DNA of 64,000 bases from Candidatus Nanoarchaeia archaeon (GCA_035288985.1 DATDYP010000015.1:27119-91118), one strand, 5' to 3'; shown: positions 18,879 through 64,000, counted from the stretch's first letter. Made by a program: numbers and translations. Notes: a model not told the origin generated them from the sequence alone.

Positions 18879-19340
18879 TCAACAAGGCTGTATATTCTCT
18901 GCCACCAAGGCCTGCTCAGCGCATACTGCTTCTTCGTCATAAAGAAGTATTTTAGGTGAGATCTTGACCTGCCGTATCTGCCCTGAAACGGAACTGTCAT
19001 AGCTGACGTGCCCTAGATAGACTCCGGCTTTGGTTATCCTGGCATCATTTGCTTCAAAGGTTTCCGCTTTTTGTGCGCCGATGATGTTGATGACCAAGCC
19101 TTCCACATTGGTGTTGATGCCGTTTTCAACTGTGAAAGAGAGGTCTTTCTTTGCTTCGTCATAACAGACCTGCTCCTCGCCGCCGATGACGGAAAATTGC
19201 AGCTCAATGTTAACAGGGCATTCTGCTTCTGATTCTACTTCTGCTCGTCCTAAATTCATCACCACTACTCCTACTGCCACTGCAAAGGAGACCAGAAGAA
19301 GCGTGGTCATCAATGGCGTGATGGCTTTTTTATTCAACAT
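18879..19340 (-). CDS. Archaeal type IV pilin-like protein (class III signal peptide)
   Basis: N-terminus MLNKKAITPLMTTLLLVSFAVAVGVVV matches the archaeal pilin/archaellin N-terminal pattern (K-x-A-[IV]-[ST]-P-[VL]-[IM]...hydrophobic). Confidence 0.6.
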   Translation of the reverse strand: MLNKKAITPLMTTLLLVSFAVAVGVVVMNLGRAEVESEAECPVNIELQFSVIGGEEQVCYDEAKKDLSFTVENGINTNVEGLVINIIGAQKAETFEANDARITKAGVYLGHVSYDSSVSGQIRQVKISPKILLYDEEAVCAEQALVAENIQPC

Positions 19341-19341
19341 C

Positions 19342-19779
19342 TTATCGTTTCCAGTGCGTTTTTTCTTTGTGAAGGATCTCGGTAACTCTATGTAGTGGTA
19401 TAAAAACTTCTTTTCCTTTATCTAAAAATACTAAAAATTCTTTTTCAATGCGTTTCAGTTTGCCTGCATGCAGGAGGAGCTCTTTATCTTTCACATGATC
19501 TTTATATTTGAAATGGAACTCATGTTTTTGTGGATGGCGATGTACTTTTTTTGCTTCAGATTTAACTGGTTTTTCTATTTCCCAGAGAGGATTAGCATCC
19601 TTGAAAATAACTCCTGATAATCCTAACATTGTAATCCCTAAGACTAAACTCAGCCAGGGATTGGAGATGATAGGATGGATGTATCCTAGTCCGTCCCATA
19701 CTCCAGCCCAGAAAAACACTACTCCTATCGTTCCAAAGATATACCAAAAATATTTTTTAATGTCTTCGCCAGCAACCAT
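19342..19779 (-). CDS. Two-TM membrane protein with a C-terminal MJ1316/DUF504-like domain (paralog 2)
   Basis: Two TM helices, then FHFKYKDHVKDKE...FIPLHRVTEILHKEKTHWKR (an IPxHRI...W.R-type ending). Start moved to ATG 19779 (MVAGED), 1 nt after the upstream paralog's stop. Confidence 0.55.
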   Translation of the reverse strand: MVAGEDIKKYFWYIFGTIGVVFFWAGVWDGLGYIHPIISNPWLSLVLGITMLGLSGVIFKDANPLWEIEKPVKSEAKKVHRHPQKHEFHFKYKDHVKDKELLLHAGKLKRIEKEFLVFLDKGKEVFIPLHRVTEILHKEKTHWKR

Positions 19780-19780
19780 G

Positions 19781-20260
19781 TTATAATCTCCAATAGCGTT
19801 TTCCTTTATAGAGCACTTCACTAACTCTGTGCACAGGAATAAATAATTCTTGTTTTTGTTTTGGCGGCACTACTACCAAGGCGCCTTTTTCTATCTTTTT
19901 TACCCAAGCAGCAGGGATAGTAACATACTTTTTTTGTGCCTTGTCATAATACTTGAATTCAAAATTTTTCTTATCCTGATGCGCCTGTATGGAATGCAAG
20001 GTTTTGTCGACTGCCTTTTGGATCCCTCCTAAAGGGTCAAATTCTTTAAAGATAGCTCCGGAAATGGTGAGCATAGCAAAGCCCAAAAAGAGGAACACTA
20101 AAGGAGTACAAGTTTCAAGTTGAATAGAAGCCGGGCAGCTCAAGTCTCCTAGGAAAGGCACTTCATAAAGCCCGTCCCAAATTCCTTTCCAAGTGAAGAT
20201 AATGGCAATAGCTATGTATAAGGATGATAAGAAATGTTTATCCTGCTCACGTAATACCAC
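19781..20260 (-). CDS. Two-TM membrane protein with a C-terminal MJ1316/DUF504-like domain (paralog 1)
   Basis: Same architecture as the neighbour: FEFKYYDKAQKKY...FIPVHRVSEVLYKGKRYWRL. Confidence 0.55.
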   Translation of the reverse strand: MVLREQDKHFLSSLYIAIAIIFTWKGIWDGLYEVPFLGDLSCPASIQLETCTPLVFLFLGFAMLTISGAIFKEFDPLGGIQKAVDKTLHSIQAHQDKKNFEFKYYDKAQKKYVTIPAAWVKKIEKGALVVVPPKQKQELFIPVHRVSEVLYKGKRYWRL

Positions 20261-27218: not shown

Positions 27219-30494
<3,276 letters not shown>

Positions 30495-44993: not shown

Positions 44994-45031
44994 TTTGTTT
45001 TGTACCTGTTTTGTACTTTCTTGAGCATGAG

Positions 45032-45119
45032 CGGGCCGGAAGGGATTTGAACCCTCGACCGCTTGATGTCCTTCAGCTTGCTAAAAGTCAAGCGCTCTAC
45101 CAAGCTAAGCTACCGGCCC
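45032..45119 (-). tRNA. tRNA-Lys(UUU) with one 14-nt intron at 37/38
   Basis: Acceptor GGGCCGG/CCGGCCC. D arm GCTT-AGCTTGGTA-GAGC. Anticodon stem CTTGA/TCAAG. Loop CTTTTA[intron 45068-45081]A. T arm GAGGG-TTCAAAT-CCCTT. Discriminator G, no encoded CCA. Confidence 0.85.
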
Positions 45120-47057: not shown

Positions 47058-47153
47058 GCGGTAGTAGTATAGTGGTTAGTATACGGCCTTGCCAGAGATT
47101 TTGTAAAAGTCTGTAATGAGGCTGTGACCGGGGTTCGACTCCCCGCTACCGCA
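47058..47153 (+). tRNA. tRNA-Gly(GCC) with one 24-nt intron at 37/38
   Basis: Acceptor GCGGTAG/CTACCGC. D arm GTAT-AGTGGTTA-GTAT. Anticodon stem CGGCC/GGCTG. Loop TTGCCA[intron 47095-47118]A. T arm CGGGG-TTCGACT-CCCCG. Discriminator A. T-run after the 3' end. Confidence 0.85.
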
Positions 47154-47214
47154 TTTTTACTCATAGCATGACTGTAAAGAAATAATTATATACCCCTTCT
47201 CTTTTATTATTCTC

Positions 47215-49692: not shown

Positions 49693-49884
49693 ACTAAATC
49701 CGGTTCTGTAGAAAATCTCTGAAAAGTCGCCTTGGCCGCTCATTCGGTCAATTCTTGCTTTGTATCTTTTTGTAAAAAGCATGATTTTTTGAAGGAATTG
49801 AACTACCAATAGGTCTTACGAAAAGCAGTTCCTCATTCGCAACGTGGCCGAGGCGGCGACTTTTTCTACCGAGTCACTAAATCC
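49693..49884. mobile_element. MITE-like element (174 bp, 49702-49875) flanked by a perfect 9-bp direct duplication ACTAAATCC
   Basis: ACTAAATCC occurs at 49693-49701 and 49876-49884. Terminal inverted repeats GGTTCTGTAGAAAA / TTTTCTACCGAGTC match 11/14. Inner inverted repeat AAAAGTCGCC / GGCGACTTTT. The left end resembles the family consensus GGCTCTGTCCTAAATCTC. The right duplication contains the stop codon of the RimK-like gene. Confidence 0.65.
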
Positions 49885-50956
49885 TAAACTCTTCGACGTT
49901 CAGTTTTCCTTTCCTGGCCTTGACAAGGTACTCTCTCCTGTCATTGAAGCCAGTTATCTTGGTGATCAATTCCGGAAGAAGAATCCGCTCACCACGCAGC
50001 GTCAAGTGGGTGATGATCTCATGCCCAGCATCAGGATCAGCAGAGAGCTCTTTCAACACTTTTGTTGTTGCTACCTTATGACTGGCATTAAGGATCGCGT
50101 CAGTCTTCCTGAACAGGAATTTGGCAATCTCATCGGCAATATCAATGGTTGAAACTTCACTTAACCCCTGTAACCCTGGAGAGATGTTGGCTTCTATCAC
50201 CAGCGGACCCGACGGTCCTTCCAGTATATCTACGCCGCAAATCTCTGCTTTCAAGGCTTTGGCTGTATCTAGCGCAATGTTGATAGTGTCCCTGTTTAGC
50301 TGGACGGCTGCGCCTTTTCCTCCGGCATGCAGATTAGCCCGCTTATCTTCCGTCTGTGATTTCCGCTTCATCGCGGCAACGACTTTTTCCCCAACAACAA
50401 GAGCTCGGATATCCTCCCCGCCAGTCTCAACGTATTCCTGAATGATAAAAGGCTGGTTCAGTACGCCCAAAGCATCTAACAGTGAAGAGGCCGAGCTGAT
50501 CGAATCCGCAAACATCACACCCTTGCCCTGCGTCCCTTCCGGGAATTTCATGACGATCGGATAGTTGACCAGTTTCAGCAGTTCTTTCGCTTCTGCTGCC
50601 GATGGCGAGATATACGTCCTGGGCATGGGAATATTTTGCTGCTGCAGGATCAAATGGGTGAGAAGTTTGTTATGCACTGTTGTGAAAGTACTTGAAGGAA
50701 GCGGCATGTAGGGGACTTTTCCTTCCAGCATCGAAGCGATGGAGCAGAGCAGATTGGCATACCTGTACGATCCTTTCACATAGACACAGTCATAATTATC
50801 TAGCTCCTTCCCTTGATATGAAATTCCAGCTTCCTTGCCTAGATGCACTTCAATCTGTTTCAGCTGGATCATGTCAACCTTGGTAAAATATTTTTTCATC
50901 GCTTCCGCTGTCATTACTGAGCTGGTACTTCCCATGGAAATGAGTGCGGCTTTCAT
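49877..50956 (-). CDS. RimK-type ATP-grasp ligase
   Basis: YPIVMKFPEGTQGKGVMF, FIIQEYVETGGEDIRALVVG, ANLHAGG, ICGVDILEGPSGPLVIEANISPG. About 70 aa of C-terminal extension. Confidence 0.8.
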   Translation of the reverse strand: MKAALISMGSTSSVMTAEAMKKYFTKVDMIQLKQIEVHLGKEAGISYQGKELDNYDCVYVKGSYRYANLLCSIASMLEGKVPYMPLPSSTFTTVHNKLLTHLILQQQNIPMPRTYISPSAAEAKELLKLVNYPIVMKFPEGTQGKGVMFADSISSASSLLDALGVLNQPFIIQEYVETGGEDIRALVVGEKVVAAMKRKSQTEDKRANLHAGGKGAAVQLNRDTINIALDTAKALKAEICGVDILEGPSGPLVIEANISPGLQGLSEVSTIDIADEIAKFLFRKTDAILNASHKVATTKVLKELSADPDAGHEIITHLTLRGERILLPELITKITGFNDRREYLVKARKGKLNVEEFRI

Positions 50957-51306
50957 AAGTTTGGATCGATCAGGAAATTTCCCTTCTTCAAGATATTCTG
51001 CCCGATAAGTACTCTGTAGGTCATGTGGCTTCTGTCAGCGATGGTGACTTCTTCTTCAATCTCCTTGCCTTTTATTATAATTGTTGCTTTCACGATAGGC
51101 CTTTGCTTGACTCCTGAGGCGGATTTTACAACCTTCGTCCGTATCACCGGACCAAGTTCAAGTTCTTCCGCCAGGTGCTTGCCGATTGAGGAGGATGTAG
51201 CGCCGGTGTCTATCCGTGCGGTAAGTTCTATTTCTTTCCCGGACTTTCCTTTTATGGTTATAGTTTCGGTGAGGCCTAAAATTACTTTTCCCGGCATAGC
51301 AAGCAT
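50953..51306 (-). CDS. Retropepsin-like aspartic protease (DUF785 / RimK-associated 'zinc protease' family)
   Basis: LTARIDTGATSSSI (DTGA), YRVLIGQNILKKGNFLIDP. Overlaps the rimK-like start by 4 nt. Confidence 0.7.
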   Translation of the reverse strand: MLAMPGKVILGLTETITIKGKSGKEIELTARIDTGATSSSIGKHLAEELELGPVIRTKVVKSASGVKQRPIVKATIIIKGKEIEEEVTIADRSHMTYRVLIGQNILKKGNFLIDPNL

Positions 51307-52442: not shown

Positions 52443-52736
52443 ATGCAATTCTTCGGCTATATGAACATGAGGTACGAAAATAAAATGGATAACAGAAGGG
52501 ATAAAGGAAACCGATCTCGTTCGCAAGGAAGAAGCGATCGAGGAGATCGAGGAGGAAGTTTTGGCGGCGGGAATTTTAGAAGCAGAGGCAGCTTTGACCA
52601 AGGGCCTAGGGAAATGCACCCAGCTACATGCGCAGAATGCGGCTGCAGCTGTGAAGTTCCGTTTAAGCCTACCGAAGGCAAGCCAGTCTACTGCCGGGAT
52701 TGTTTCAGGAAGAAAAATCCAAATCCGCGCTTTTGA
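52443..52736 (+). CDS. RGG-rich small protein with a CxxC-x17-CxxC zinc-ribbon domain
   Basis: CAEC + 17 residues + CRDC (CAECGCSCEVPFKPTEGKPVYCRDC), preceded by an R/G/S/D-rich low-complexity region. GTTTTATAAAG lies about 40 nt upstream. Confidence 0.6.
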   Translation: MQFFGYMNMRYENKMDNRRDKGNRSRSQGRSDRGDRGGSFGGGNFRSRGSFDQGPREMHPATCAECGCSCEVPFKPTEGKPVYCRDCFRKKNPNPRF

Positions 52737-53954: not shown

Positions 53955-54878
53955 GTGAAGATCAGGATGGAAAAAAGAGGACAGGTTACAGTATTTATAA
54001 TTGTAGGCATTATGATAGTGTTGCTTTCCTTAGGTTTCTTTCTTGTTAAAAACAGTTTTCTTACCGAGAGCCTGGCTGCCGAAGAGAAAGGACTACCGGT
54101 AGGGGTAGTGCAAAGCACTGTCGAATCATGCCTGGAACGAAGTACAAAAGATGCGCTGGTCATAGTCGGAAAACAGGGAGGGTATTATAAGGCGCCTCTT
54201 GACTCTGAATTTCTGTTCGGTTCCTATGTTCCCTATTATGTTTATGAAGGGGAGGATGCGGCTCCTGATTTGGAGGATCTGGAGAAGCAACTCTCTCTAG
54301 CTGTCAGTGACCTGCTTCCCGAATGCCTGGATCAGATCGTCGAGTTCCATGCCCGCGAGGGGGTTGTTGTTGAGTACCGCATTGATAGGATCAGCGCCAT
54401 GATCCGTGATGACGCTATTTCTCTGGAAGGAAATATTCCAGTAGCAGTACGCTTGAAAGAGGAGCAAAAAGTTGAAGCAGAATTGTCCCATTTTGCGGTC
54501 ACGCTGGAAGTACAATATAAGGAATTGTATGAATTCAGCACGGAAATAGCACGTTTGCAGAAGACAGACCTGCAGTGGTTTATGTTTGGAGACCTTTCTG
54601 ATCTGAGCTATAAATCTGGTATACAGTTTGAAATTCTCGCTCCGCAGCAGTTTGTCAGCGAACGAGAAGAGACTGGTGCAGAGATTGTACCTGACAATGA
54701 TCAAGAGGATTATAATAAGATCCTCATTTCCCTGGTCAGCCGGGATTTTTTCGACGAGCCATATTATTACACTTTTGGAATCCTTTTTGATGCGGATTAT
54801 GATGCCGCTTTTAGTAAAGATGCTGAACTGGAAGAAACGATGCTGCAGGAGGTTGACCTAGCATTAGCAGAAGAATGA
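53955..54878 (+). CDS. Pilin-like surface protein (class III signal peptide, KRGQ motif)
   Basis: SD-like AAGGAG lies upstream. N-terminus M(KIRM)EKRGQVTVFIIVGIMIVLLSLGFFLV is a short basic leader, G-Q, then a hydrophobic helix, as in archaeal prepilins processed before Gln. The rest is acidic with no motif. Confidence 0.5.
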   Translation: MKIRMEKRGQVTVFIIVGIMIVLLSLGFFLVKNSFLTESLAAEEKGLPVGVVQSTVESCLERSTKDALVIVGKQGGYYKAPLDSEFLFGSYVPYYVYEGEDAAPDLEDLEKQLSLAVSDLLPECLDQIVEFHAREGVVVEYRIDRISAMIRDDAISLEGNIPVAVRLKEEQKVEAELSHFAVTLEVQYKELYEFSTEIARLQKTDLQWFMFGDLSDLSYKSGIQFEILAPQQFVSEREETGAEIVPDNDQEDYNKILISLVSRDFFDEPYYYTFGILFDADYDAAFSKDAELEETMLQEVDLALAEE

Positions 54879-54879
54879 T

Positions 54880-57800
54880 GTGGATGATATGAACAGACAC
54901 CGACAATTCATCAAGAGGACTGGATTTCTCGCTGTAATCCTTGCGTTTATGTTAGTGCTCGCGCCGCTGGTTCTTTCCCAGGGCGAGGAAAGTGCTAGTG
55001 TGTATGATCCTTCCAAACCAGGAGAGTTTGATTACGCAAAAGGAAGTGAGCAGGACAAAATGAAGTATCTGGAAGATGTCTATGGCGTGAAAGGCCTGCC
55101 CAGCGGATTAGCTGGCGTAACTTTGGCAGGGGATCAATTAATTGTCAGCAATTCAGCTTTCACTCTCAACGGCGCCAATTTCCAGGGCGGAACAGTCAAG
55201 CTGGGCAAAGGGGGAGAATTACTCAGCGTACAAAGCACTGAAGTGAAAAATGATTTGTCATTGAAAGGCAGCGTCGTCACTGGTATTTTCAGCTTTTCCG
55301 GGAATTCAATTACCATAGAAAAGGGAAAGCTAGCTCTTGGAAATGATGCCAGCTCCCAGTTGACAAAAGTTACAGCACGGAAGGGAACAACTGTTGATGT
55401 TTCTAGAGGAACAGGATATACAGGAACGATTACTGCCGAGCAAGGGCCTTTTAATCTTGGAACGACGGAGCAGCAGGTTTCAGTTGGGAAGAGTGTTGCT
55501 GTCAAAGATGGGAAGATTGACAAGGGCGAAAGCATTACTGCCGTGACACCAGTCAAAGGGCTTTTTGCTGGCATTCCTGATGACCTTGAAGTGTCAATGA
55601 CTAATGGTAAGGTTGACGGCAATACTATTGAGAGCAGCAGATACTGCCTCTCAGCAAACTGTTTTTCCTCCAAGGACGGTTCGGCAGCTTCAAAAGTGGA
55701 GATTACGAAAAGGCAGGATGAAGGCGATCACAAACTAACAATTACTGGAACCAATGTGCGTTACCGCTGGAAAGGGGAATTACAGCGCATTATCAGTTCC
55801 CCGAATGGCGCAACGTTAGAACAACAGCCCTCTCAATTCCTTGAAGCCGGGGAAAAATGGAGGTTAACGCCAGGCACGACGGTAACAGAAGTAAAAGCAG
55901 GAGGAGCTTCTTCAACTATTTCTGTTTCTAAAGAGACGCTTTATTCTCCTCGCGGTTTTCGAGATGATTGTAATGATATCCCTGGTAGTTGTATTGCCAT
56001 CGACCAGTGGAATTCCGTCCGCGTCAAGGTGCAAGGCAACAACAAGATCACAGTGAACAATTTTATGGCCATGCCGACAATAACTGTTGATAAGATTGAT
56101 GACCAAAGCACGGTCGAATATATTGAGCATAATCTGGACAGTGCCGTCAAGGAGAAGGATAAAGTCAAATTGAAGTTTAGCAAGGATCCTCTCCAGATCT
56201 ACCCTGCTGCTAACCTTAAACATCTGCAAACACGAGTATTTCACGAGTATACCGGCAGGGATGATCAAAGGCACGCCTTGGAATTAGATACTGCCGGGAA
56301 AAGTGTTGCGGTTGATGGGAAGATTCTTGGGCATTATGATGAATGGGTTCAGAAGAATTATTACCGCACCCGGTTCAGTGATGTCATCAGCCAGGATAAG
56401 AAGAGAGAAATTGAAGACCTTATCCATGGAGAAATTCCAGTAGGAGAGTACGCCGCCTTTACTGAGGAGCAGAAAGATGCGCTCATCATTCTTACGTATA
56501 ATAATCCTGAAGCTGTCAAGGGCAAGCTTCAGCCGATCGGTTTTAACATCAAACAGTCCTTTGACAAACTTCCAAAGGATCTAGATAAGGGGGAATTCCT
56601 CCGGAAAGCCTCTACTTATCTGGGAGGACAAGATCCGTTGACGGTATCATCAGATCCGTATCTAACAATACTGCCGAAAGAAGCGGCGGAGTTGGAAGAG
56701 TTGTATAGCCAAATGAACATTGTGAGCGGCAATTACATCTTAGAAGCACAGGTCCTTGATGCTTATCAGGACGGGAAAATAAGCAATGCAGCAGTTGCCG
56801 GGTTTACAAAAAGGTTTCTTGCTGACGGCTCTAAAGGAGAGCAGCTTCCCTATAGCGCGGAAGAGGCGCAGGTCTTTGTGACGGTATTAACAAAAGTTCC
56901 TACAGATAAGGCGAAAGTGGACCAGCGCCTGCAAGAATTAGGTAATGTCGACGAGTTTTATCAGAAATATCATCAGGGAAACGCGCGTCTGGCGCTCTTT
57001 GATACGGCGGGAAGTCTTCTGGAAACAGGGACAATTACGATTAATGAAAATGATCTTGCGGTTCCCCCTTCGCTGCAGGGAAAAGTTCCTCAATTCATTA
57101 AAACATGGAGCAATTGGGAAATAATGGAGATCTCTTCAAGCATGGATTTAGGTTCTTCCCTTTTAGTCTGGGAGCATGAGCCAGAGCTTGTGAAAGTGGC
57201 TGAAGGTTGGTCTGCTGAGAAAGGCGGGCTCACTAGCGTTCCGCAGGAATTCAACAGGGATGTGCGTGAGCGGATCGAAGTGCTAAAAGCTCTTGCTAAG
57301 GCACGAAACAATCCTGCATTATCAGAGGATCTGCGATTCGGATTCTCGGTCACATTTGCATCAACAAGTTCCAAGCTAGGCACATTGATCAATCACCTGG
57401 GCCATGTCGGACAGGAAGACCAGAGAGGAGCCCTTGTTGAAGCCCTGCCATCGGAAGTCCAGCTTGAAATACTAAACACGAGGTTATCAATATTAGGAGA
57501 GGACGAAGGGTTGTATACATCCAGTGTAGCAAAGATATTCAAAAGTTTAACCACAAAAGTCGGCGGCGGGGAACATTTTGTTGATTTCATGGAAAAGCAG
57601 GGGGAAGAGTACAAATTAGGCGGTAGCCATGCTAACAATATTTTACTGATTTTAGCAGCATCCGGGCAACTCGGCGAGGTGGTTCCAGCGGATCCAGCGA
57701 GGCGTAAGATGGTCTATTCAGGTGTGATAGGCACTTTCATTGACGAGCATCCTTCTCTTGCTGCGGTGGCAATACGGCAGATCCTTTCCAACGCAAACTA

Positions 57801-58692
57801 TAAAGATGAGTTTTCAGAGACGTTCTTACAGGAATATGTGAAGGCAGAGAAAAACGCTGCACAGTCCAAAGAGGACGCAACAAAACGGAACGTCTTTCAA
57901 TTTATCGTGCGGCAGAACTTGGACAAGTTTAATGCTGCTGATCCTACAGTTGCAAGTATTGTGAGAAACCCCAGCCCGGCAGTCCAGAAAGTAGAAGCAA
58001 GTTTAAACATCCCTGCCCAGCGATGGATCCAGGAAGCAGAGAAAAAAACTGACGGAACTCCTGTCATCAGGCATTTAGTCGGGTGGGTAAACACTGAAGA
58101 TAAAAATGAAGAGATAGCGTATAAGCAGTACAAGACTTCAAGTCCTGGTTACCTTGTCGTTTCTGAGACAGATACGGGATACGTTCTTGAAAAGAGAGGG
58201 ACGATCGTGGTCGTTGAAGAAGGAAAACCAGTCACAAAAAATGTTGTCTTTCAGAAAGTAGTGACAAAGAGCAGGGATGAATTCGTCCAGCAATCACGAT
58301 CCGAGAAGTATCAACTACAATCCTGCCGAGGACATTCTTATGGCTGCGGCGCGGTGGCACAAAAATTAAGTCCGGCAGACGTGAATATCTTTGGCTCCTG
58401 CGGCGGCGTTGCTGACTTTGATGCCATGAAATCCAAAAATCCTTCCGCAGCCTACATAGGCACGACTAAGACAGGCCTAACCGATATCAATGATAATCTG
58501 GATCAGCATATCGAAAGCTCTTTCGCCTCATGCAGCGATTATAAATGCTCCTGGGATTTTGTCACGCAGCAGGCAACTGTGGATATCGAAGATAGGGGGT
58601 ATGTTGGCCCCGTGGAAAATATTTATGGTGCTCTTAATGAGCGGCGTGAGGAAAGCGGCACAGCACCGAGTGGAGTGGCTGCCAGCCAGTAG
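54880..58692 (+). CDS. Giant secreted/surface protein (1270 aa), no recognised domain
   Basis: Starts 2 nt after the pilin-like gene (GTG 54880 or ATG 54889). Signal/anchor FLAVILAFMLVLAPLVLSQG. Long non-repetitive body. The C-terminal region has conserved-looking Cys/His (CRGHSYGCG...GSCGG). Confidence 0.6.
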   Translation: MDDMNRHRQFIKRTGFLAVILAFMLVLAPLVLSQGEESASVYDPSKPGEFDYAKGSEQDKMKYLEDVYGVKGLPSGLAGVTLAGDQLIVSNSAFTLNGANFQGGTVKLGKGGELLSVQSTEVKNDLSLKGSVVTGIFSFSGNSITIEKGKLALGNDASSQLTKVTARKGTTVDVSRGTGYTGTITAEQGPFNLGTTEQQVSVGKSVAVKDGKIDKGESITAVTPVKGLFAGIPDDLEVSMTNGKVDGNTIESSRYCLSANCFSSKDGSAASKVEITKRQDEGDHKLTITGTNVRYRWKGELQRIISSPNGATLEQQPSQFLEAGEKWRLTPGTTVTEVKAGGASSTISVSKETLYSPRGFRDDCNDIPGSCIAIDQWNSVRVKVQGNNKITVNNFMAMPTITVDKIDDQSTVEYIEHNLDSAVKEKDKVKLKFSKDPLQIYPAANLKHLQTRVFHEYTGRDDQRHALELDTAGKSVAVDGKILGHYDEWVQKNYYRTRFSDVISQDKKREIEDLIHGEIPVGEYAAFTEEQKDALIILTYNNPEAVKGKLQPIGFNIKQSFDKLPKDLDKGEFLRKASTYLGGQDPLTVSSDPYLTILPKEAAELEELYSQMNIVSGNYILEAQVLDAYQDGKISNAAVAGFTKRFLADGSKGEQLPYSAEEAQVFVTVLTKVPTDKAKVDQRLQELGNVDEFYQKYHQGNARLALFDTAGSLLETGTITINENDLAVPPSLQGKVPQFIKTWSNWEIMEISSSMDLGSSLLVWEHEPELVKVAEGWSAEKGGLTSVPQEFNRDVRERIEVLKALAKARNNPALSEDLRFGFSVTFASTSSKLGTLINHLGHVGQEDQRGALVEALPSEVQLEILNTRLSILGEDEGLYTSSVAKIFKSLTTKVGGGEHFVDFMEKQGEEYKLGGSHANNILLILAASGQLGEVVPADPARRKMVYSGVIGTFIDEHPSLAAVAIRQILSNANYKDEFSETFLQEYVKAEKNAAQSKEDATKRNVFQFIVRQNLDKFNAADPTVASIVRNPSPAVQKVEASLNIPAQRWIQEAEKKTDGTPVIRHLVGWVNTEDKNEEIAYKQYKTSSPGYLVVSETDTGYVLEKRGTIVVVEEGKPVTKNVVFQKVVTKSRDEFVQQSRSEKYQLQSCRGHSYGCGAVAQKLSPADVNIFGSCGGVADFDAMKSKNPSAAYIGTTKTGLTDINDNLDQHIESSFASCSDYKCSWDFVTQQATVDIEDRGYVGPVENIYGALNERREESGTAPSGVAASQ

Positions 58693-58727
58693 TCATGTTT
58701 AAAAAGAATTGAGATTTTTGGCACAGA

Positions 58728-59576
58728 ATGACCGTTAATGTTAAACCGGTGCTACTTTCTGTGCTTGTTGCCTCTTGCGCACCGCAGGCAGTTTCTTTCC
58801 GGGAAGAAGCATATGAAGCATCCCTGCAACAGGAAGAAAAAGAGAGAGCCGATGGAGTTCCGCCTGCTGCATCGTTCCACTTTTTAGAAGCCAACAGAAA
58901 AAGCCAGGAAAATCAAGAAAAAAGTATAGATGACAAGATCTATCAACTCTCAGAGCAATTTGCGGAAAAACATCAACGGGAAGATCCCAGAAAGAGGGAA
59001 TACTTCAATTCAGATAAACCATTGCAGGAGATTATCCAATCCTATTCTGAGACAGACGCTGGATCTGCTCATCAGCAGCGCCGGATCGTTGTCCGTAAAT
59101 CTGAACGGCTTTTATCGCTTTACATAGGGGAATCACTATTGAAAGAATATCCGGTAGGGCTGAGTGTAGGATCTAGAAAAGACAAAGAACAGGAAGGAGA
59201 CGGACAAACTCCCGAAGGGACATTCTACATTTCTCTAAAAATTTTAAAAGGTACCTATGATAAATCACTTCTGATAAGCTACCCCGACAAGGAAGATGCC
59301 GAGAGAGGTCTTCAGGAAGGTCTTATCAGTAAAGGAGAATATAGAACTATCGTTAGTGCGATTGATTCTTGCAAGGCTCCTCCACAAAAAACTGCTTTGG
59401 GAGGAGAAATTTTAATTCACGGCGGTTCTGGCAGCTATGATTGGACTGCCGGATGTGTCGCTCTTGATGAGCATGACGAGATTTATGCTTTTGCCAGAAG
59501 CGGATGTTATTGGGCCAGGGATGAGCAGGGTAGAAGAATGTTGATTCCAAAGACAGTAGTTGAGATAAGGAAATGA
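58728..59576 (+). CDS. L,D-transpeptidase (YkuD/YafK-like) lipoprotein
   Basis: VLLSVLVASCAPQ (lipobox-like). RIVVRKSERLLSLYIGESLLKEYPVGLS...KEQEGDGQTPEGTFYI...LLISYP...GGEILIHGG...TAGCVALD (the HG...GC catalytic signature of YkuD domains). Confidence 0.8.
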   Translation: MTVNVKPVLLSVLVASCAPQAVSFREEAYEASLQQEEKERADGVPPAASFHFLEANRKSQENQEKSIDDKIYQLSEQFAEKHQREDPRKREYFNSDKPLQEIIQSYSETDAGSAHQQRRIVVRKSERLLSLYIGESLLKEYPVGLSVGSRKDKEQEGDGQTPEGTFYISLKILKGTYDKSLLISYPDKEDAERGLQEGLISKGEYRTIVSAIDSCKAPPQKTALGGEILIHGGSGSYDWTAGCVALDEHDEIYAFARSGCYWARDEQGRRMLIPKTVVEIRK

Positions 59577-59605: not shown

Positions 59606-62600
59606 CTACTCGTCCAAATTCTGAGTTTTTTCCAAAGTTTCCATCTTTAAATTATTTTTATCAAAAACAACTACTTTTCCATCTACATATAGGGTAAGAG
59701 TAGTGGTATCTTCTCTGAGGTATTGTCCGCGGACTTCACTCACTGCTGAGCCGCGATAGACGGCAGGAAAAGTTCCCTCAACTACGATCTCATCTCCTTC
59801 TATAATTAGTTTGTTAAAGTCGATGGCATTAAAAGGCACTACTATTTGTCTGCCATCATCCAATCGGGTGACTTTAATTTTACCTTCGGAAAAACCATCA
59901 AATCTAACTACAGCTGTACTAGGTGTTTCAAAAGAAGGTACTCTTTCAGTTAGCCGTAGCAGATCTCCTTCTACAATTAAAGAGTTGAGATCAACTGATA
60001 GTAACGGAATAAGGTCAGAGTCACTGATCACTCCAGAAGTTTCAAAATCAAAGCCATTCTTCATATTGATATCAACCTCATCAGTTATGGGCGAGTTAGC
60101 AACATTCTTAAATTCTCCACCCCGGATATGTCTCTTGTCAGTATACGAAAATATAAGAAAATTTCTTCCTTCTTCCAAATCAGCAAGAGTCCTAGGGTAA
60201 TTCACTTTTTTCTCAACCCTTGCTGCTTCCAATTGATTATGTAAATCGCTGCCAACAGGTATTTCTTTATCTGCCCAATACCACCTCTCTCCGGCGTATT
60301 GGTTGGTAACAGCATCATAAGTATATGTTCTTCCTTCCAACTTTACTCCCCCTGTAACATGATAAGCATCGGTGTCTACGGTAGGTAGTGTACAACCTAT
60401 ACTTGCAGCTTGCCCGACTATCGCTCCGCCAGGAGGGCAGGGAGGTAAGTCTAGTGATTTAAGTTCTTCTCCTGCTTTCTTCCGCGACACTAACACTAAA
60501 CCTTCATCGATGTTATCTAATGTAGGCAGGCTGGAACGTTCAACATCAAGCTCCCAGCCGGCGCTTTCCATAATTTTATAGGCTGGCGTTTCTTTGATGG
60601 CTTCAACCGGCGTAGCGCCAGGATTTCTTCTCAAGTAATCAATGTACGGATCACGATTTGTGCCGGTCAAGAATCCTTTCACGTAATCTACTTCCGGATG
60701 CAGCTCTCCCGTTTGCTGCATGATGCGGCGGTTAACTCCCGCGCCTTGATAGTCCGGCGCAACGAACGTAAAGTCAATTTCCATTTCGTTGCCATTAACC
60801 TTGTAGTAATGCGAGGCTATCGGCTGATCAGTGATGGGATTTTTTATTTCAATCGCCAATGAGCCGTCAGGGAGATACTTGATGGTCTGCACCCCTTCCA
60901 CTACTTCATCACGTGTGAAGAAGAATAAAAATTTATTTTTCTTGGTGGTGTAAAACTTACCTTCACCGATGATGACGGGCGCTTTTGATGCTGCCGCTTG
61001 CTGTTGTAGTTTTACTCTTCCTTCCGGTGAAACAGCTTCTTTCCATTCAGGAATGCTGTCTTCAACGCGTCTGGGCAGGCCTTCCACCGCTTTGGCGTTA
61101 TCTATCTCTGCAAAAATTTCCGGATGCTGTGTTTTGTCTATCCTCTCATCCCATGGAGGGAAGGCTCTCTTACGTTTTACTGTTCCTTGAGCAGTTTCAT
61201 AATACTCTTCTCCCCCTAACAGGAATGCATCCCTGCCTTGGCTGTCTTTTCCTTTGTAGAGGGCTTCAGGCGCTGCTTCAAGAGGAGCATCTGGAGTTAT
61301 TATCCTCACGCCTGAAACAGGTTCAGAAATTGCTGCTGCCTGGCTAGGAGTACTTACTTTCTCTACAGGGGGAAATCTCTTTGCAACTGTAGGAACTTGT
61401 GTCGAGGTTGAAATCTCAGGAAGATTTCTAGCAAGATCCTCAGGATCAACAAAGGTCAAAGGAACATGGTCCAGATCAGTGATATATAGCCTATGAATCC
61501 GTTGTTTAGGATTAGAAATATACTGGACAAGTTCGTTCAATTCATTCTCATTCGTAACTCCTAAATTCCGCAGGGCCACTTGCAAATCATCAAGGCTGGC
61601 TTCTTCTATAGCCTTGGCAAATTCAGGGGTTCTCTTTTTGAAGTTGAGAGATTTTTTTGCAGCCTCTAACGGCCCTTCTATGGTTCTTTGCACACTAAAA
61701 TCAACACGCCTCTTATCAATACCAAGAATCCTATTAAAGAAACGCTTAATGGAACCATCTTGCCCCCATTCCATTACATCTATAGTTACAAAATCTCCTT
61801 GTTTGTATCTGATAACTTCCCCATTTCTAACAACATCAAAAGGTTCATCAAGAATCATGACTTGTTCATCAATCGGCTTGGCACCAGCTTTTACTGCTTC
61901 GGTAAGTTCATCTCTGAATTTATCAATCCTTTCCGGTGTCAAATATTGTACAAGTTCCTGATCAGACATGTCAAATAACTGTTTTCCTGGAACTCTGTCA
62001 GTTACTAAATATGGAACACCATCTATTACATAGATGCCATGATACTTTGGGCAGGCCATGTGCTTACACACTCCCTCAGCGTTCTCTAATTCTTTAAAGA
62101 GCCCATCAACATTCTCCTGCAAACCACGCCGCGGCGTATCCACCTTGGCTGTTTTGAAAGCTAAATCTTCACCTACACCGGGTATACTGCCTCCGTATAC
62201 AACACCTACTTTTCCTTCACCGATCTTTCCCTTGAAGATGACTTCTGCTTTTTCAACTTTAATATCTGAATGCTCTTTGATAATTGTTTCTAAATCTATT
62301 CCTTGGCTCTGATAACCTTGTTTAATTGTATTTATTTCTTGAGAGATTTCTGCTGGTGCTCTTTCCGAAATAGGGAGGGGTTCAGGAATTCTAGCTACTG
62401 GCACTTCTACTCTTAGCGGTGGAGCGATTTTCGCAGACTTTTTGACATTTTCTAATCTTCTTTTGATTAAGATTTCAACATCATCATCAGATAAGGGAAT
62501 CCTTGTAGTAAATGAAGGATCTTTTGCAGCTTGCTCGGAAAATTCACGGAACACCTTAACAATTTTAGGATCTGCAGCACGGGAATCAATGCCAAAGGGG

Positions 62601-64000
62601 AAGACTTTCCTTTTTAGAGCTTCCAAGGGCGTTCCTCTTCCAACAAAAGATGATGGTAAATAGTTTTCGTTAATAAAATCAAAACCAGTCATGGAATCTA
62701 CATCGTCAACAAGTTTTACCAAACCTTCATCATAAGTGATTCCTAAGCTGCCTCCACCCGGGAGGTCCCTTAGACCTCTAGCTTCAATGAATTCTCCCCA
62801 GTTAAGATAAATTCTGGCTTGATCCTGGCTAATTCCAACCTGTTCATTTGGCAGTAAGGCTCCTTTGGCATGAACATTTATATCATGGAGAGCTTCATCT
62901 CCCTGCGTGGCAAGCGGAAGTTTACCTTCATAGGCCCAACGCCTGAGATAATCTTCCGGAAAGACACGGCCAGTAGCGTCATAGAATCGTATGTTGGTCT
63001 TTAATTGAGGATCTTGAACGAGAGCGTCTAATCTATCTAACCTTACATTAAGCTCTGTCGCATCAGGGAGTAATATAAGGTTAGAACCTTCTTTTGTAAT
63101 TCCTAATTGTGCAGCCGCAGCTTCGCCAAAGATTTGGATATTGTCCTCTGGATTGCCTCTAAACCTGTCGCCATCTCTGATATTATAATTCACCCAACTG
63201 TCTAGATTTTGGTCAAGTTCAAGAACTCTCAATCTTCCCCCAGCATCTCCTGATATAGTTCCGGCCATGCGGTATGATGTAGGTTGCCCATCAGCTCTGA
63301 TGAAGGTTGTTTCTGCATTTGTTGTATCTAATGGCACTACAGTACCATCAGTTCTTGTAAATTCATCAACAACCTCAGGAATCCTACAAGCAGATCCAAC
63401 AATTATTCCTGGAGCACTCTTGCAGCCGTCAAAGATACCAGAAACGCCCGCTCTTCCCTCAAACAACTCCTCTCCCACTATTGAATTTCTATATTGCCCT
63501 GCAACCCCTGAACTCGCTCCTTCACCAACCACATCAACGATTCTCCCAGTTTCAGCATCAACAACAATCCGTACAGCAACGCTGTTGCCTAGCACTTCCT
63601 GCGGTACAGAGCCGACTCCCTGGATGCGCATGCTGGCTGGATCAACATGAACAACGAGATTCTGTTTTCCATCAATAGTTGGCACCCTATTGGTCTGGTC
63701 AAGAATCCGCTGTTGGTGAAGATTAAATTCCAAGCCAGGATTGGAAACACCAGCTCTGGATGTAGTGGTAAGGCTGGGAAGATCAAGGCCATTCTTAGGA
63801 ACAGAGCGTGGCGTTCCCCGGATGTCCAGATAGAGATTTGCCTCATCTTCGCCGAGATATTTTCCGACATACAGATCACCTGATAAATCTTGTCCTCCAA
63901 CGCCTCTTCGAGGACGGGAACGTATATGGATCGGTTCCCCTGCTGGAACAACATTGCCTAAAGGAATTTTCTGCTGTACTTTCTTTTCTGGGAAGAAATA
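59606..64000 (-). CDS. Giant multidomain protein, 5'-partial (at least 1464 aa), with a protein-kinase-like segment and a GNAT-like segment
   Basis: The tracked start (63733) is an internal TTG. Manual translation of the same frame from 63734 to 64000 meets no stop (...PAGEPIHIRSRPRRGVGGQDLSGDLYVGKYLGEDEANLYLDIRGTPRSVPKNGLDLPSLTTTSRAGVSNPGLEFNL...), so the gene continues beyond the window. Kinase-like segment: GKIGEGKVGVVYGG...LAFKTAK...YLVTDRVPG. GNAT-like segment: FTFVAPDYQGAGVNRRIM. Confidence 0.65.
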   Translation of the reverse strand, partial: YFFPEKKVQQKIPLGNVVPAGEPIHIRSRPRRGVGGQDLSGDLYVGKYLGEDEANLYLDIRGTPRSVPKNGLDLPSLTTTSRAGVSNPGLEFNLHQQRILDQTNRVPTIDGKQNLVVHVDPASMRIQGVGSVPQEVLGNSVAVRIVVDAETGRIVDVVGEGASSGVAGQYRNSIVGEELFEGRAGVSGIFDGCKSAPGIIVGSACRIPEVVDEFTRTDGTVVPLDTTNAETTFIRADGQPTSYRMAGTISGDAGGRLRVLELDQNLDSWVNYNIRDGDRFRGNPEDNIQIFGEAAAAQLGITKEGSNLILLPDATELNVRLDRLDALVQDPQLKTNIRFYDATGRVFPEDYLRRWAYEGKLPLATQGDEALHDINVHAKGALLPNEQVGISQDQARIYLNWGEFIEARGLRDLPGGGSLGITYDEGLVKLVDDVDSMTGFDFINENYLPSSFVGRGTPLEALKRKVFPFGIDSRAADPKIVKVFREFSEQAAKDPSFTTRIPLSDDDVEILIKRRLENVKKSAKIAPPLRVEVPVARIPEPLPISERAPAEISQEINTIKQGYQSQGIDLETIIKEHSDIKVEKAEVIFKGKIGEGKVGVVYGGSIPGVGEDLAFKTAKVDTPRRGLQENVDGLFKELENAEGVCKHMACPKYHGIYVIDGVPYLVTDRVPGKQLFDMSDQELVQYLTPERIDKFRDELTEAVKAGAKPIDEQVMILDEPFDVVRNGEVIRYKQGDFVTIDVMEWGQDGSIKRFFNRILGIDKRRVDFSVQRTIEGPLEAAKKSLNFKKRTPEFAKAIEEASLDDLQVALRNLGVTNENELNELVQYISNPKQRIHRLYITDLDHVPLTFVDPEDLARNLPEISTSTQVPTVAKRFPPVEKVSTPSQAAAISEPVSGVRIITPDAPLEAAPEALYKGKDSQGRDAFLLGGEEYYETAQGTVKRKRAFPPWDERIDKTQHPEIFAEIDNAKAVEGLPRRVEDSIPEWKEAVSPEGRVKLQQQAAASKAPVIIGEGKFYTTKKNKFLFFFTRDEVVEGVQTIKYLPDGSLAIEIKNPITDQPIASHYYKVNGNEMEIDFTFVAPDYQGAGVNRRIMQQTGELHPEVDYVKGFLTGTNRDPYIDYLRRNPGATPVEAIKETPAYKIMESAGWELDVERSSLPTLDNIDEGLVLVSRKKAGEELKSLDLPPCPPGGAIVGQAASIGCTLPTVDTDAYHVTGGVKLEGRTYTYDAVTNQYAGERWYWADKEIPVGSDLHNQLEAARVEKKVNYPRTLADLEEGRNFLIFSYTDKRHIRGGEFKNVANSPITDEVDINMKNGFDFETSGVISDSDLIPLLSVDLNSLIVEGDLLRLTERVPSFETPSTAVVRFDGFSEGKIKVTRLDDGRQIVVPFNAIDFNKLIIEGDEIVVEGTFPAVYRGSAVSEVRGQYLREDTTTLTLYVDGKVVVFDKNNLKMETLEKTQNLDE

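What the first reader, a model, noticed from the sequence alone, without database searches (positions are those of the whole stretch)
53955..59576. Cell-surface module: prepilin-like protein, 1270-aa secreted giant and a bacterial-type L,D-transpeptidase lipoprotein
Seen in sequence: Three co-directional genes have 2-nt and 35-nt gaps. The first has a class III-like signal (EKRGQ followed by a hydrophobic helix). The second has an N-terminal signal/anchor and no recognisable domain. The third has a lipobox-like signal plus a clear YkuD/YafK catalytic core (ILIHGG...TAGCVALD). Established knowledge: YkuD enzymes act on peptidoglycan stem peptides (3-3 cross-links, lipoprotein attachment or cleavage). 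Archaea lack murein, and only some methanogens have pseudomurein. Inference: in an archaeon with DPANN-like features, an exported L,D-transpeptidase next to adhesin-sized proteins could act on the wall of a bacterial or pseudomurein-containing partner, or could cross-link its own surface proteins. This may be an interaction or attachment system not described as such. The grouping into one functional unit is an inference from adjacency only.
Basis: partly seen in the sequence, partly recalled or inferred. Interest (0 to 1): 0.7.

Follow-up and report, generated by a model that had tools for sequence, protein, structure and literature searches.

The report
Archaeal surface cassette with DpaA-like enzyme
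A tiny DPANN-type archaeon carries a conserved three-gene surface cassette (a pilin-like anchor protein, a huge secreted protein of unknown fold, and a bacterial-type wall enzyme that resembles the E. coli 'lipoprotein-detaching' amidase DpaA), which most likely helps it work on the cell wall of a bacterial partner.

Summary
The three genes are real and sit on an archaeal (Woesearchaeota/Nanoarchaeia-like) contig found in at least 11 independent assemblies. Their grouping is not an accident of adjacency. The trio recurs in 6 of 7 divergent lineages of the 1270-aa protein (B). A parallel trio built on a second family (B', about 625-1065 aa) recurs in other Woesearchaeota genomes. A YkuD gene directly follows the partner in 10 of 19 B/B' cassettes but in only 1 of 76 other cassettes (p≈1e-7).

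Gene 1 belongs to a large DPANN family (>343 genomic relatives) with an invariant KRGQ class-III-like signal. It is almost always followed directly by a large co-directional, often overlapping gene. Some of these partners carry murein hydrolase domains (SLT, RlpA-like, amidase_3, M23).

The YkuD enzyme keeps its catalytic His and Cys. It lacks the Arg typical of true L,D-transpeptidases and is closest to E. coli DpaA/YafK, so it is more likely a hydrolase than a cross-linker. B ends in an uncharacterised His/Cys domain.

Most likely this is a bacterial-wall-directed contact module. The target has not been shown experimentally. I found no description of it in the searchable literature.

The parts
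53955..54878 (+). Gene A: 307-aa (303 aa if translation starts at ATG 53967) member of a large Woesearchaeota/Nanoarchaeia family with a class-III-like (prepilin-like) signal. Proposed membrane or filament anchor and adaptor for the protein encoded directly downstream.
   Evidence: ORF. No Pfam or NCBIfam hit. There are 4 close homologs and >343 genomic relatives, all from DPANN MAGs. 95 of 106 family genes are followed directly by a large co-directional gene. The AF2 model has mean pLDDT 62.8 with a confident core at residues 45-70 and 105-200. Foldseek against the PDB found no significant hit.
53967..54047 (+). Class-III-like signal of A: MEKRG|QVTVFIIVGIMIVLLSLGFFLV. The KRGQ codons lie at 53973-53984.
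   Evidence: K7 R8 G9 Q10, F14 and I15 are invariant in alignment A1. The KRGQ plus hydrophobic pattern recurs in the A homologs of all loci listed. Cleavage itself was not tested.
54129..54326 (+). Two invariant cysteines of A (C59 at 54129-54131 and C124 at 54324-54326). They may form an extracellular disulfide.
   Evidence: Invariant columns in alignments A1 and A4. The disulfide is an inference.
54880..58692 (+). Gene B: 1270-aa secreted protein with an N-terminal Sec-type signal (residues ~1-34, ending LVLSQ). It belongs to a very rare family and its start is tightly coupled to the end of A.
   Evidence: ORF. No Pfam domain. Only 19 hits at E<=1e-3 among 1.84 billion representatives, about 8 of them full length. 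Homologs in L003, L005/L012, L011, L094 and L095 always follow an A gene. No PDB sequence match.
58090..58620 (+). C-terminal His/Cys domain of B (residues ~1071-1247), with RGHSY at 58327-58341 (His1152) and GSCGG at 58393-58407 (Cys1174). Candidate catalytic domain of unknown fold.
   Evidence: H, S, G-x-C-x-G, G and N are invariant in alignment A6, which includes the non-B proteins P0097 and P0098 that share only this domain. No Pfam hit and no PDB hit. The AF2 model is unusable (pLDDT 40.7).
58728..59576 (+). Gene C: 282-aa exported DpaA/YafK-like YkuD-fold enzyme. It has a lipobox-like signal (VASC, 58767-58778), a ~100-aa low-complexity linker and a catalytic domain at 59079-59501 (His231 within 59409-59426, Cys243 within 59445-59465).
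   Evidence: PF03734 at 57.5 bits. The catalytic domain is 50-57% identical to bacterial YafK-like proteins. It has Ala at Cys+2, like DpaA. DpaA is the closest E. coli paralog. The closest solved structure is 8ikr.
59606..64000 (-). C-terminal 1375+ aa of a convergent 4461-aa giant protein that runs off the window. It is probably part of the same surface gene island.
   Evidence: Called as 4461 aa on other assemblies. It is homologous to giants that flank the trio in L003, L019 and L049. Only sub-threshold Pkinase and GNAT hits were found.

Best explanation
The three genes are one cassette of a DPANN (Woesearchaeota/Nanoarchaeia) cell-surface system that is directed at bacterial cell walls.

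Protein A is exported with a class-III (prepilin-like) signal. Its conserved N-terminal ~200 residues keep it in the membrane or in a pilin-like assembly. Its variable C-terminal part holds the large Sec-secreted protein encoded directly downstream. In this window that partner is B, which carries an uncharacterised His/Cys domain at its C-terminus.

Protein C is an exported, possibly lipid-anchored, DpaA/YafK-like YkuD-fold enzyme that works together with B. Using its Cys243/His231 dyad, it most likely hydrolyses amide bonds at the meso-diaminopimelate of murein stem peptides. These could be protein-murein tethers (the DpaA reaction) or terminal residues (LD-carboxypeptidase activity). It probably does not make 3-3 cross-links. 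The effect would be to loosen or remodel the envelope of a diderm bacterial partner at the contact site, alongside the lytic transglycosylase, amidase and M23 domains carried by sister cassettes.

Shown here: the gene structure, the archaeal context, the conserved synteny, the retention of the catalytic residues, the DpaA-like active-site signature, and the link between the A family and murein-hydrolase giants.

Inferred: the A-B physical pairing, export and processing, the hydrolase chemistry, and the bacterial target.
For: Synteny:
- The A-B-YkuD order is found in the window/L001, L003 (53/38/40% identity), L005=L012 (39/30/30%), L011, L094 and L095.
- A parallel trio, A-B'-YkuD, is found in L024, L031, L037, L049, L064, L067, L081 and L087. 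L003 and L094 hold both types in tandem.
- YkuD lies directly after the partner in 10 of 19 B/B' cassettes against 1 of 76 other A cassettes (Fisher p=9e-8).

A as a general partner:
- 95 of 106 A-family genes are followed within -80 to +200 nt by a large co-directional gene.

Link to the bacterial wall:
- The A-partner giant in L070 has SLT (2.6e-21) and DPBB_1 (2.3e-22) domains.
- The L024 giant, of the same class and immediately upstream of a trio, has Amidase_3 (2e-23) and Peptidase_M23 domains.
- The literature already proposes bacterial hosts for these lineages on the basis of such giants (PMC8204110, PMC9723730).

The enzyme:
- The YkuD domain scores above its cut-off.
- The IHG...WTxGC[VI]A motif is conserved in the archaeal copies.
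- Ala at Cys+2 is the DpaA/LD-carboxypeptidase signature described in PMC8263019.
- A profile of the archaeal enzymes scores 51.6 bits against E. coli DpaA, 8 bits against LdtB, and has no hit to LdtD.
- The archaeal copies cluster together, apart from the bacterial ones, which fits an old acquisition that has been maintained.
- All copies carry N-terminal export signals.
Against: - No biochemical or expression data exist.
- The archaeal YkuDs have no murein-binding domain such as LysM or PG_binding.
- A lipobox-type anchor would hold the enzyme at the archaeon's own membrane, and it is unclear how it would then reach a bacterial periplasm.
- The enzyme fails the NCBIfam DpaA equivalog cut-off by a wide margin (23 bits against 365) and is only about 27% identical to E. 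coli DpaA.
- B and B' have no recognisable wall-binding or wall-degrading domain.
- The tight linkage of YkuD specifically to B/B' could equally mean that B/B' is its substrate.
- The window's own neighbouring giant has no detectable murein hydrolase domain.
- One B lineage (the P0087 contig) lacks the adjacent YkuD, and one (L094) has the catalytic Cys replaced by His.
Confidence: 0.5

Rival explanations
1. Self-directed protein processing. The YkuD-fold enzyme acts on the archaeon's own surface proteins. It would mature, release or (iso)peptide-link B/B' and/or A, in the way a sortase or pilin-processing enzyme does, and murein would not be involved.
For: - YkuD is linked specifically to the B/B' class of A cassettes and not to A cassettes in general (10/19 against 1/76).
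- A probably inactive Cys-to-His copy is still kept in the same position in L094, which suggests a binding relationship with B.
- The archaeal copies have no murein-binding domains.
- The lipobox-like anchor would keep the enzyme at the cell's own surface.
- By established knowledge, the archaeon has no murein.
Against: - The catalytic domain is 50-57% identical to bacterial YafK-like enzymes and keeps their active-site signature, which argues for a conserved mDAP-containing substrate.
- Ribosomal proteins have no D-centres or mDAP.
- A, B and B' have no conserved C-terminal Lys or other obvious acceptor or donor motif.
- Sister cassettes are demonstrably murein-directed.
Confidence: 0.2
2. 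Endogenous wall polymer. The archaeon makes a murein- or pseudomurein-like peptide-containing polymer, and the enzyme remodels it.
For: The enzyme is exported and possibly anchored to the archaeon's own membrane. DPANN genomes contain many bacterial-type genes (PMC8204110).
Against: No report of such a polymer in Woesearchaeota was found. The ORFs of the window that were scanned include no Mur-type ligases. YkuD occurs in only part of the lineage and always inside the surface cassette rather than with biosynthesis genes.
Confidence: 0.07
3. No functional unit. The genes are neighbours by chance, or the YkuD gene is a bacterial contaminant or chimeric join.
For: The YkuD domain is of bacterial type, and its best named hits are Deltaproteobacteria and Acidobacteriota.
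Against: The same order occurs on at least 11 independent contigs together with archaeal RNA polymerase genes. The order recurs in many divergent archaeal MAG contigs, next to archaeal-type genes such as Rpb5-like RpoH, LSM and SepF. Composition is uniform across the region. The archaeal YkuDs form their own cluster. The association is statistically strong.
Confidence: 0.02

Closest known systems
E. coli DpaA (YafK/LdtF), peptidoglycan meso-DAP protein amidase (PMC8263019; structure 8ikr)
   Same: Both have the YkuD fold, a His/Cys dyad, Ala instead of Arg two residues after the catalytic Cys, and an N-terminal export signal. DpaA is the closest of the three E. coli YkuD paralogs compared, DpaA, LdtB and LdtD.
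   Different: The window protein is encoded by an archaeon without murein. It is only ~27% identical to DpaA and scores far below the NCBIfam equivalog cut-off. It has an extra ~100-aa low-complexity linker and a lipobox-like signal. It sits in a conserved cassette with a pilin-like protein and a giant secreted protein. Its activity is untested.
Giant extracellular murein lytic transglycosylase proteins of Woesearchaeota/Pacearchaeota (Castelle et al. 2021, PMC8204110; Vigneron et al. 2022, PMC9723730)
   Same: Same lineages, same extracellular location, same proposed bacterial-wall target. In the loci examined here, giants of this kind (L070 with SLT and DPBB_1; L024 with M23 and Amidase_3) are partners or neighbours of the same A family.
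   Different: B and B' have no SLT, amidase or M23 domain. The enzymatic activity here is supplied by a separate small YkuD gene. Neither the A-family adaptor nor the YkuD link is mentioned in those papers.
Minor pilin plus large tip adhesin (bacterial PilY1-type) and archaeal type-IV-filament loci that encode large adhesin-like proteins (bioRxiv 10.64898/2026.04.22.720090)
   Same: A protein with a class-III/prepilin-type N-terminus is co-encoded with a large Sec-secreted protein.
   Different: No filament ATPase, platform protein or signal peptidase lies nearby in the window. A shows no detectable sequence or structural similarity to known pilins, and B shows no sequence similarity to PilY1-type adhesins. 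The large family of paralogous A cassettes seen here is not known for PilY1 systems.
Tlde1-type T6SS effectors (YkuD-fold toxins that act on a rival cell's murein). Recalled from memory, not checked with the tools.
   Same: The concept is the same: a YkuD-fold enzyme used against another cell's peptidoglycan.
   Different: Tlde1 is delivered by a bacterial type VI secretion system. The producers are bacteria and they carry immunity proteins. No homology beyond the shared fold was tested here.

Membership tests
YkuD superfamily (Pfam PF03734) | Domain match above the Pfam gathering score | tested here: met
   57.5 bits against a cut-off of 23.4, residues 118-258. Ten archaeal homologs score 45.9-69.8 bits.
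YkuD superfamily (Pfam PF03734) | Catalytic His and Cys present | tested here: met
   His231 (ILIHGG) and Cys243 (TAGCVAL). Both are conserved in 17 of the 18 archaeal module-linked copies examined; L094 has Cys replaced by His.
True L,D-transpeptidases (LdtA-E type) | Conserved Arg two residues after the catalytic Cys (motif [S/T]xGC[IV]R) | tested here: not met
   The window has GC-V-A and the archaeal copies have GC[VI]A. E. coli LdtB has GCVR and LdtD has GCVR. The criterion comes from PMC8263019.
DpaA/YafK-like amidases (also LD-carboxypeptidase-like YkuD enzymes) | Ala or Asn at Cys+2 | tested here: met
   Ala245 in the window. E. coli DpaA has GCYA. Criterion from PMC8263019.
DpaA/YafK-like amidases | Closer to DpaA than to the other E. 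coli YkuD paralogs | tested here: met
   By BLASTP the window protein matches DpaA at E=4e-7, with nothing significant to LdtB or LdtD. The archaeal profile scores 51.6 bits against DpaA and 8.1 bits against LdtB. The only PDB hit is 8ikr, a YafK-type sequence.
DpaA/YafK-like amidases | NCBIfam equivalog NF040599 score at or above its cut-off | tested here: not met
   23.2 bits against a cut-off of 365. The protein is therefore DpaA-like, not a DpaA equivalog.
DpaA/YafK-like amidases | Hydrolysis of the mDAP-protein amide bond | not testable with these tools
   Needs an enzyme assay on Lpp- or OMP-bearing sacculi.
Archaeal class III signal peptide (type IV pilin-like) proteins | Short charged N-terminus, [KR]-G at -2/-1, then a ~20-residue hydrophobic helix | tested here: met
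   The sequence is MEKRG|QVTVFIIVGIMIVLLSLGFFLV. KRGQ is invariant in the family and recurs in homologs across loci.
Archaeal class III signal peptide (type IV pilin-like) proteins | A class III signal peptidase (FlaK/PibD/EppA) and filament machinery encoded in the genome | tested here: inconclusive
   None was found among the multi-TM ORFs of the 64-kb window (no GxGD motif, no Peptidase_A24 hit). The rest of the genome is not available.
Archaeal class III signal peptide (type IV pilin-like) proteins | Pilin-like globular fold | tested here: inconclusive
   The AF2 model (pLDDT 62.8) shows a long N-terminal helix and a helix plus 4-stranded sheet core. Foldseek against the PDB gave no hit at E<=0.001.
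Clan CD-like (caspase/CHAT-type) cysteine peptidases, considered for the C-terminal domain of B | His then Cys, each after a hydrophobic strand, with detectable homology or a matching fold | tested here: inconclusive
   The order and the invariance of H1152 and C1174 fit the pattern. However, there is no Pfam hit, no PDB hit and no usable model (pLDDT 40.7).
Woesearchaeota/Pacearchaeota giant lytic transglycosylase proteins | SLT or other murein hydrolase domain in the large protein | tested here: not met
   B has no such domain and neither does B'. Other A-partner giants do.

The most novel reading that the evidence does not exclude
The cassette could be an archaeal covalent attachment or detachment device. 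In this reading, the pilin-like A presents B at the cell surface. The DpaA-like enzyme, perhaps together with B's novel His/Cys domain, makes or breaks amide links between proteins and the meso-DAP of a bacterial host's murein. That could unhook the host outer membrane from its sacculus, or even tether the archaeon's own protein to the host wall. This would be a cross-domain use of protein-peptidoglycan linkage chemistry that has not been described. The A family would then be the general anchor for the giant surface proteins of DPANN archaea.
Probability: 0.15. Interest if true: 0.85.

Novelty: new variant of a known kind. Interest (0 to 1): 0.6.

Why it matters
How ultrasmall DPANN archaea recognise, hold and exploit their hosts is an open question, and for Woesearchaeota and Pacearchaeota even the identity of the hosts (bacterial or archaeal) is unsettled.

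This analysis turns one odd gene into a testable system. It defines a lineage-wide pilin-like adaptor family that is paired with nearly all of the large secreted proteins examined, including the murein-lytic giants already noted in the literature. It also defines a specific sub-cassette that has kept a bacterial DpaA-like enzyme with its catalytic residues over long evolutionary distances.

If the enzyme acts on murein-protein tethers, that would point to diderm bacteria as hosts and would suggest a concrete step in contact: loosening the outer membrane from the sacculus. The work also yields two new protein families (B and B') and a new conserved His/Cys domain for structural and biochemical study.

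Tried and rejected
1. Homology between B and B'. BLAST gave only marginal hits. hhalign gave a weak N-terminal match (probability 62%). The two C-terminal His/Cys regions gave nothing significant (probability 0.2%). I therefore treat B and B' as analogous, not as proven homologs.

2. Domain searches. B, B' and several A-partner giants had no Pfam or NCBIfam hits.

3. PDB sequence searches with the B, B' and His/Cys-domain profiles returned only chance-level hits.

4. The structure of A was modelled at moderate confidence, but Foldseek found no neighbour (best E=0.009, TM<=0.19). A pilin fold is neither confirmed nor excluded.

5. The model of B's C-terminal domain was unusable (pLDDT 40.7 with a 2-sequence alignment) and was not sent to Foldseek.

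6. The contexts of the stand-alone His/Cys-domain proteins P0097 and P0098 were uninformative.

7. A search of the window for a class III signal peptidase found nothing.

8. A viral or mobile origin is unlikely: no A-family relative was found in the viral contigs.

9. The idea that the window's neighbouring giant carries murein hydrolase domains was not supported.

10. Literature searches for YkuD, YafK or L,D-transpeptidase in DPANN or other archaea found no prior description.

Full report
**1. Observation**

The three ORFs exist exactly where reported: 53955-54878 (A, 307 aa), 54880-58692 (B, 1270 aa) and 58728-59576 (C, 282 aa), all on the + strand. A's stop codon (TGA, 54876-54878) is followed after one base by B's GTG. 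Gene callers on other assemblies chose the ATG at 54889 instead. The B-C spacer is 35 nt. C is convergent with a giant ORF that ends at 59606.

A and B have no Pfam or NCBIfam domain. C has a YkuD domain (PF03734, 57.5 bits against a cut-off of 23.4).

The window is archaeal. It has RpoB split into B''/B' and RpoA split into A'/A'', a family-B DNA polymerase and two intron-containing tRNAs. Composition is even across the region.

The identical gene order, on the same contig as the RNA polymerase genes, is present in at least 11 contigs from ENA, JGI and Logan assemblies. A chimeric or contaminating origin is therefore excluded.

**2. The trio is a conserved unit**

A has only four close homologs in the 5.8-billion-protein set. 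Their contigs show the same order:
- L003 has A(303)-B(1263)-YkuD(291).
- L005/L006 has A(323)-B(1308)-YkuD(293, convergent).

The exhaustive HMMER search shows that B is a very rare family, with 19 hits at E<=1e-3 among 1.84 billion representatives and about eight of them full length. I looked up three further divergent members:
- L095 (32% identity) again shows A-B-YkuD.
- L094 (27% identity) again shows A-B-YkuD.
- The contig of P0087 shows an upstream ~324-aa gene followed by B, but no adjacent YkuD.

Together with L011, that makes 6 of 7 B lineages with the full trio.

**3. A is a large DPANN family paired with large secreted proteins**

A scan of one genome per species found more than 343 relatives. 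All of them are in Woesearchaeota, Pacearchaeota or Nanoarchaeota/Nanoarchaeia MAGs, plus several TPA bins labelled 'Methanosarcinales' that are probably mislabelled.

The KRGQ motif followed by a hydrophobic helix is invariant, and two cysteines are conserved.

In the 80 loci retrieved I found 106 A-family ORFs. Of these, 95 are followed within -80 to +200 nt by a large co-directional ORF of 158-2819 aa, often overlapping A's end. The partners fall into a few families:
- a class of 28 giants;
- a 19-member class that I call B' (about 625-1065 aa, alignment A3);
- several smaller classes.

This regular, translationally coupled pairing suggests that A is an adaptor or anchor for its downstream protein. 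That is an inference.

The conserved part of A is the N-terminal ~200-230 residues. The C-terminal part varies in length with the partner class.

**4. YkuD is linked specifically to the B/B' classes**

Thirteen of the 80 reference loci contain a YkuD ORF. In eleven of them the YkuD gene lies directly after the partner gene of an A cassette, usually convergent. In one more (L082) it lies directly upstream of A, and in L019 it lies about 7 kb upstream.

By class, YkuD lies directly after the partner in 10 of 19 B/B' cassettes and in 1 of 76 other cassettes (Fisher p=9e-8).

L003 and L094 carry a B-type and a B'-type cassette in tandem, with YkuD genes beside or between them.

**5. What the enzyme is**

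The catalytic domain of C is 50-57% identical to bacterial proteins annotated as YafK-type. The named ones come from Deltaproteobacteria and Acidobacteriota.

The active-site motif IHG...WTxGC[VI]A is kept in the archaeal copies (L024 and L095). The one exception is L094, where the Cys is replaced by His (TKGHIEM).

According to the DpaA paper (PMC8263019), true L,D-transpeptidases have an Arg two residues after the catalytic Cys, whereas DpaA-like proteins and LD-carboxypeptidases have Ala or Asn there. The sequences compare as follows:

| Protein | Motif | Residue at Cys+2 |
|---|---|---|
| Window C | TAGCVAL | Ala |
| E. coli DpaA | SIGCYAM | Ala |
| E. coli LdtB | SHGCVRL | Arg |
| E. coli LdtD | SSGCVRV | Arg |

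In direct comparison with the E. coli paralogs, the archaeal enzymes hit DpaA (E=4e-7 to 4e-13; the archaeal profile scores 51.6 bits). They barely hit LdtB (8 bits) and do not hit LdtD. The only solved structure found by sequence is 8ikr, a YafK-type protein.

C is nevertheless far below the NCBIfam DpaA equivalog threshold (23 bits against 365). It is DpaA-like, not a DpaA ortholog.

In a neighbour-joining tree, all archaeal copies but one (L051) group together with P0002 and P0003, apart from the bacterial sequences. The tree is crude and has no support values. It fits an old acquisition that has been kept with the cassette rather than repeated recent transfers.

All copies have N-terminal export signals. 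About half have a lipobox-like Cys, and one has a twin-arginine motif. None has a LysM or PG_binding domain.

**6. The link to bacterial walls**

The 3246-aa giant immediately upstream of the A-B'-YkuD trio in L024 contains Peptidase_M23 (3e-8) and Amidase_3 (2e-23) domains. It belongs to the 28-member class of A-partner giants. The hydrolase domains sit in a region that its homologs lack.

Another member of that class, in L070, carries SLT (2.6e-21) and DPBB_1/RlpA-like (2.3e-22) domains. A third, in L075, ends in a Hint module.

[quoted passage not shown] Neither paper mentions the A family or a YkuD enzyme. Literature searches for YkuD, YafK or D-transpeptidase with DPANN or other archaea found nothing relevant.

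So the A family is part of a surface system that is, at least in part, demonstrably aimed at murein. This makes a murein-related substrate the most economical reading for the DpaA-like enzyme.

**7. What B is**

B has a Sec-type signal. Its N-terminal ~480 residues are rich in Gly, Ser and Thr (direct reading of the sequence). Its C-terminal ~180-residue domain has invariant residues in the motifs RGHS(Y), G-x-C-x-G, TG and IN.

The same domain occurs alone, or in other contexts, in P0097 and P0098. P0098 lies on a probable Gram-negative contig. So it is a genuine, mobile domain that is absent from Pfam.

B' also ends with a His...Cys pair (TGHH, then ~45-50 residues, then FSACNT). Profile comparison does not show homology to the B domain.

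The order His-then-Cys, each after a hydrophobic segment, recalls clan CD peptidases and transamidases. No HMM, PDB or model evidence supports that, so I leave it as a lead.

**8. Structure of A**

The AF2 model was built from only four sequences, because only window sequences and database hits could be submitted. Its mean pLDDT is 62.8, with a confident core. It shows a long N-terminal helix, two further helices and a four-stranded antiparallel sheet. Foldseek found no significant PDB neighbour. The prepilin-like assignment therefore rests on the N-terminal signal alone.

No signal peptidase or filament machinery was found in the window.

**9. Mechanism and rivals**

Best-supported model (confidence about 0.5):
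- A anchors B at the cell surface.
- C is a DpaA-like hydrolase that works with B on the envelope of a bacterial partner.
- C most plausibly cuts amide bonds at meso-DAP, meaning protein-murein tethers or terminal residues.
- This activity would complement the glycan- and amide-cleaving domains of the sister cassettes.

Main rival (about 0.2): C processes or links B and/or A themselves. This rival is favoured by three observations:
- YkuD is linked exclusively to the B/B' classes.
- The Cys-to-His copy is retained in L094.
- The archaeal copies have no murein-binding domains.

It is disfavoured by the strongly conserved bacterial-type active site and by the lack of suitable D-centre or mDAP chemistry in ribosomal proteins.

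An endogenous wall polymer (about 0.07) and chance adjacency or contamination (about 0.02) are poorly supported.

**10. Verdict**

- This is a conserved DPANN surface cassette.
- The enzyme is DpaA-like rather than a classical transpeptidase.
- The pilin-like gene belongs to a lineage-wide family that partners with giant secreted proteins, including murein hydrolases.

I rate it a new variant of a known kind (archaeal bacterial-wall-directed surface proteins; pilin plus large-protein cassettes), with new families and a new domain. It is of moderate to high interest because it gives concrete, testable handles on DPANN-host contact.

Noticed in passing
window 59606-64000 (-), continuing beyond the window: C-terminal part of a 4461-aa giant protein, convergent with the YkuD gene. 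It has only sub-threshold protein-kinase and GNAT hits. It is homologous to giants that flank the trio in L003, L019 and L049, so it may be a fourth member of the island.
   Followed up: partly
window 27219-30470 (-): DNA gyrase B gene interrupted by an intein (Intein_splicing domain spanning residues 457-881) in this archaeal genome.
   Followed up: no
window 45031-45119 (-) and 47058-47154 (+): Two tRNA genes of 88-96 nt that evidently contain introns. ARAGORN could not assign the anticodon of the first.
   Followed up: no
window 18879-19340 (-): A 153-aa ORF with a typical archaeal pilin-like N-terminus (MLNKKAITPLMTTLLLVSFAVAV) and no Pfam hit. It is a second candidate class III signal protein, unrelated to the A family.
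   Followed up: partly
window 19342-19821 (-) and 19781-20260 (-): Two tandem, overlapping 159-aa paralogs, each with an MJ1316 (RNA cyclic group end recognition) domain.
   Followed up: no
window 49877-51306 (-): A RimK-type ATP-grasp ligase gene overlapping a small RimB-like aspartyl protease gene. This is a bacterial-style RimK/RimB pair in an archaeon.
   Followed up: no
window 52443-52736 (+): A 97-aa protein with an Arg/Gly-rich N-terminal half and a treble-clef zinc finger (zf_Tbcl_2, 66 bits).
   Followed up: no
L094 9932-10570 (-): The YkuD homolog next to the most divergent B homolog has its catalytic Cys replaced by His (TKGHIEM), and the IHG motif is altered. It is a probably inactive copy kept in the conserved position.
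   Followed up: partly
L075 11914-18780 (+); L081 14558-18871 (-): One A-partner giant ends in a Hint (autoprocessing) module, as polymorphic toxins do. In L081 a 1437-aa thermolysin/InhA-like metalloprotease sits directly beside the YkuD gene.
   Followed up: no
loci L012, L014-L018 and others: Many TPA MAGs labelled 'uncultured Methanosarcinales archaeon' carry this Woesearchaeota/Nanoarchaeia-specific gene family. Their taxonomic labels are probably wrong.
   Followed up: no
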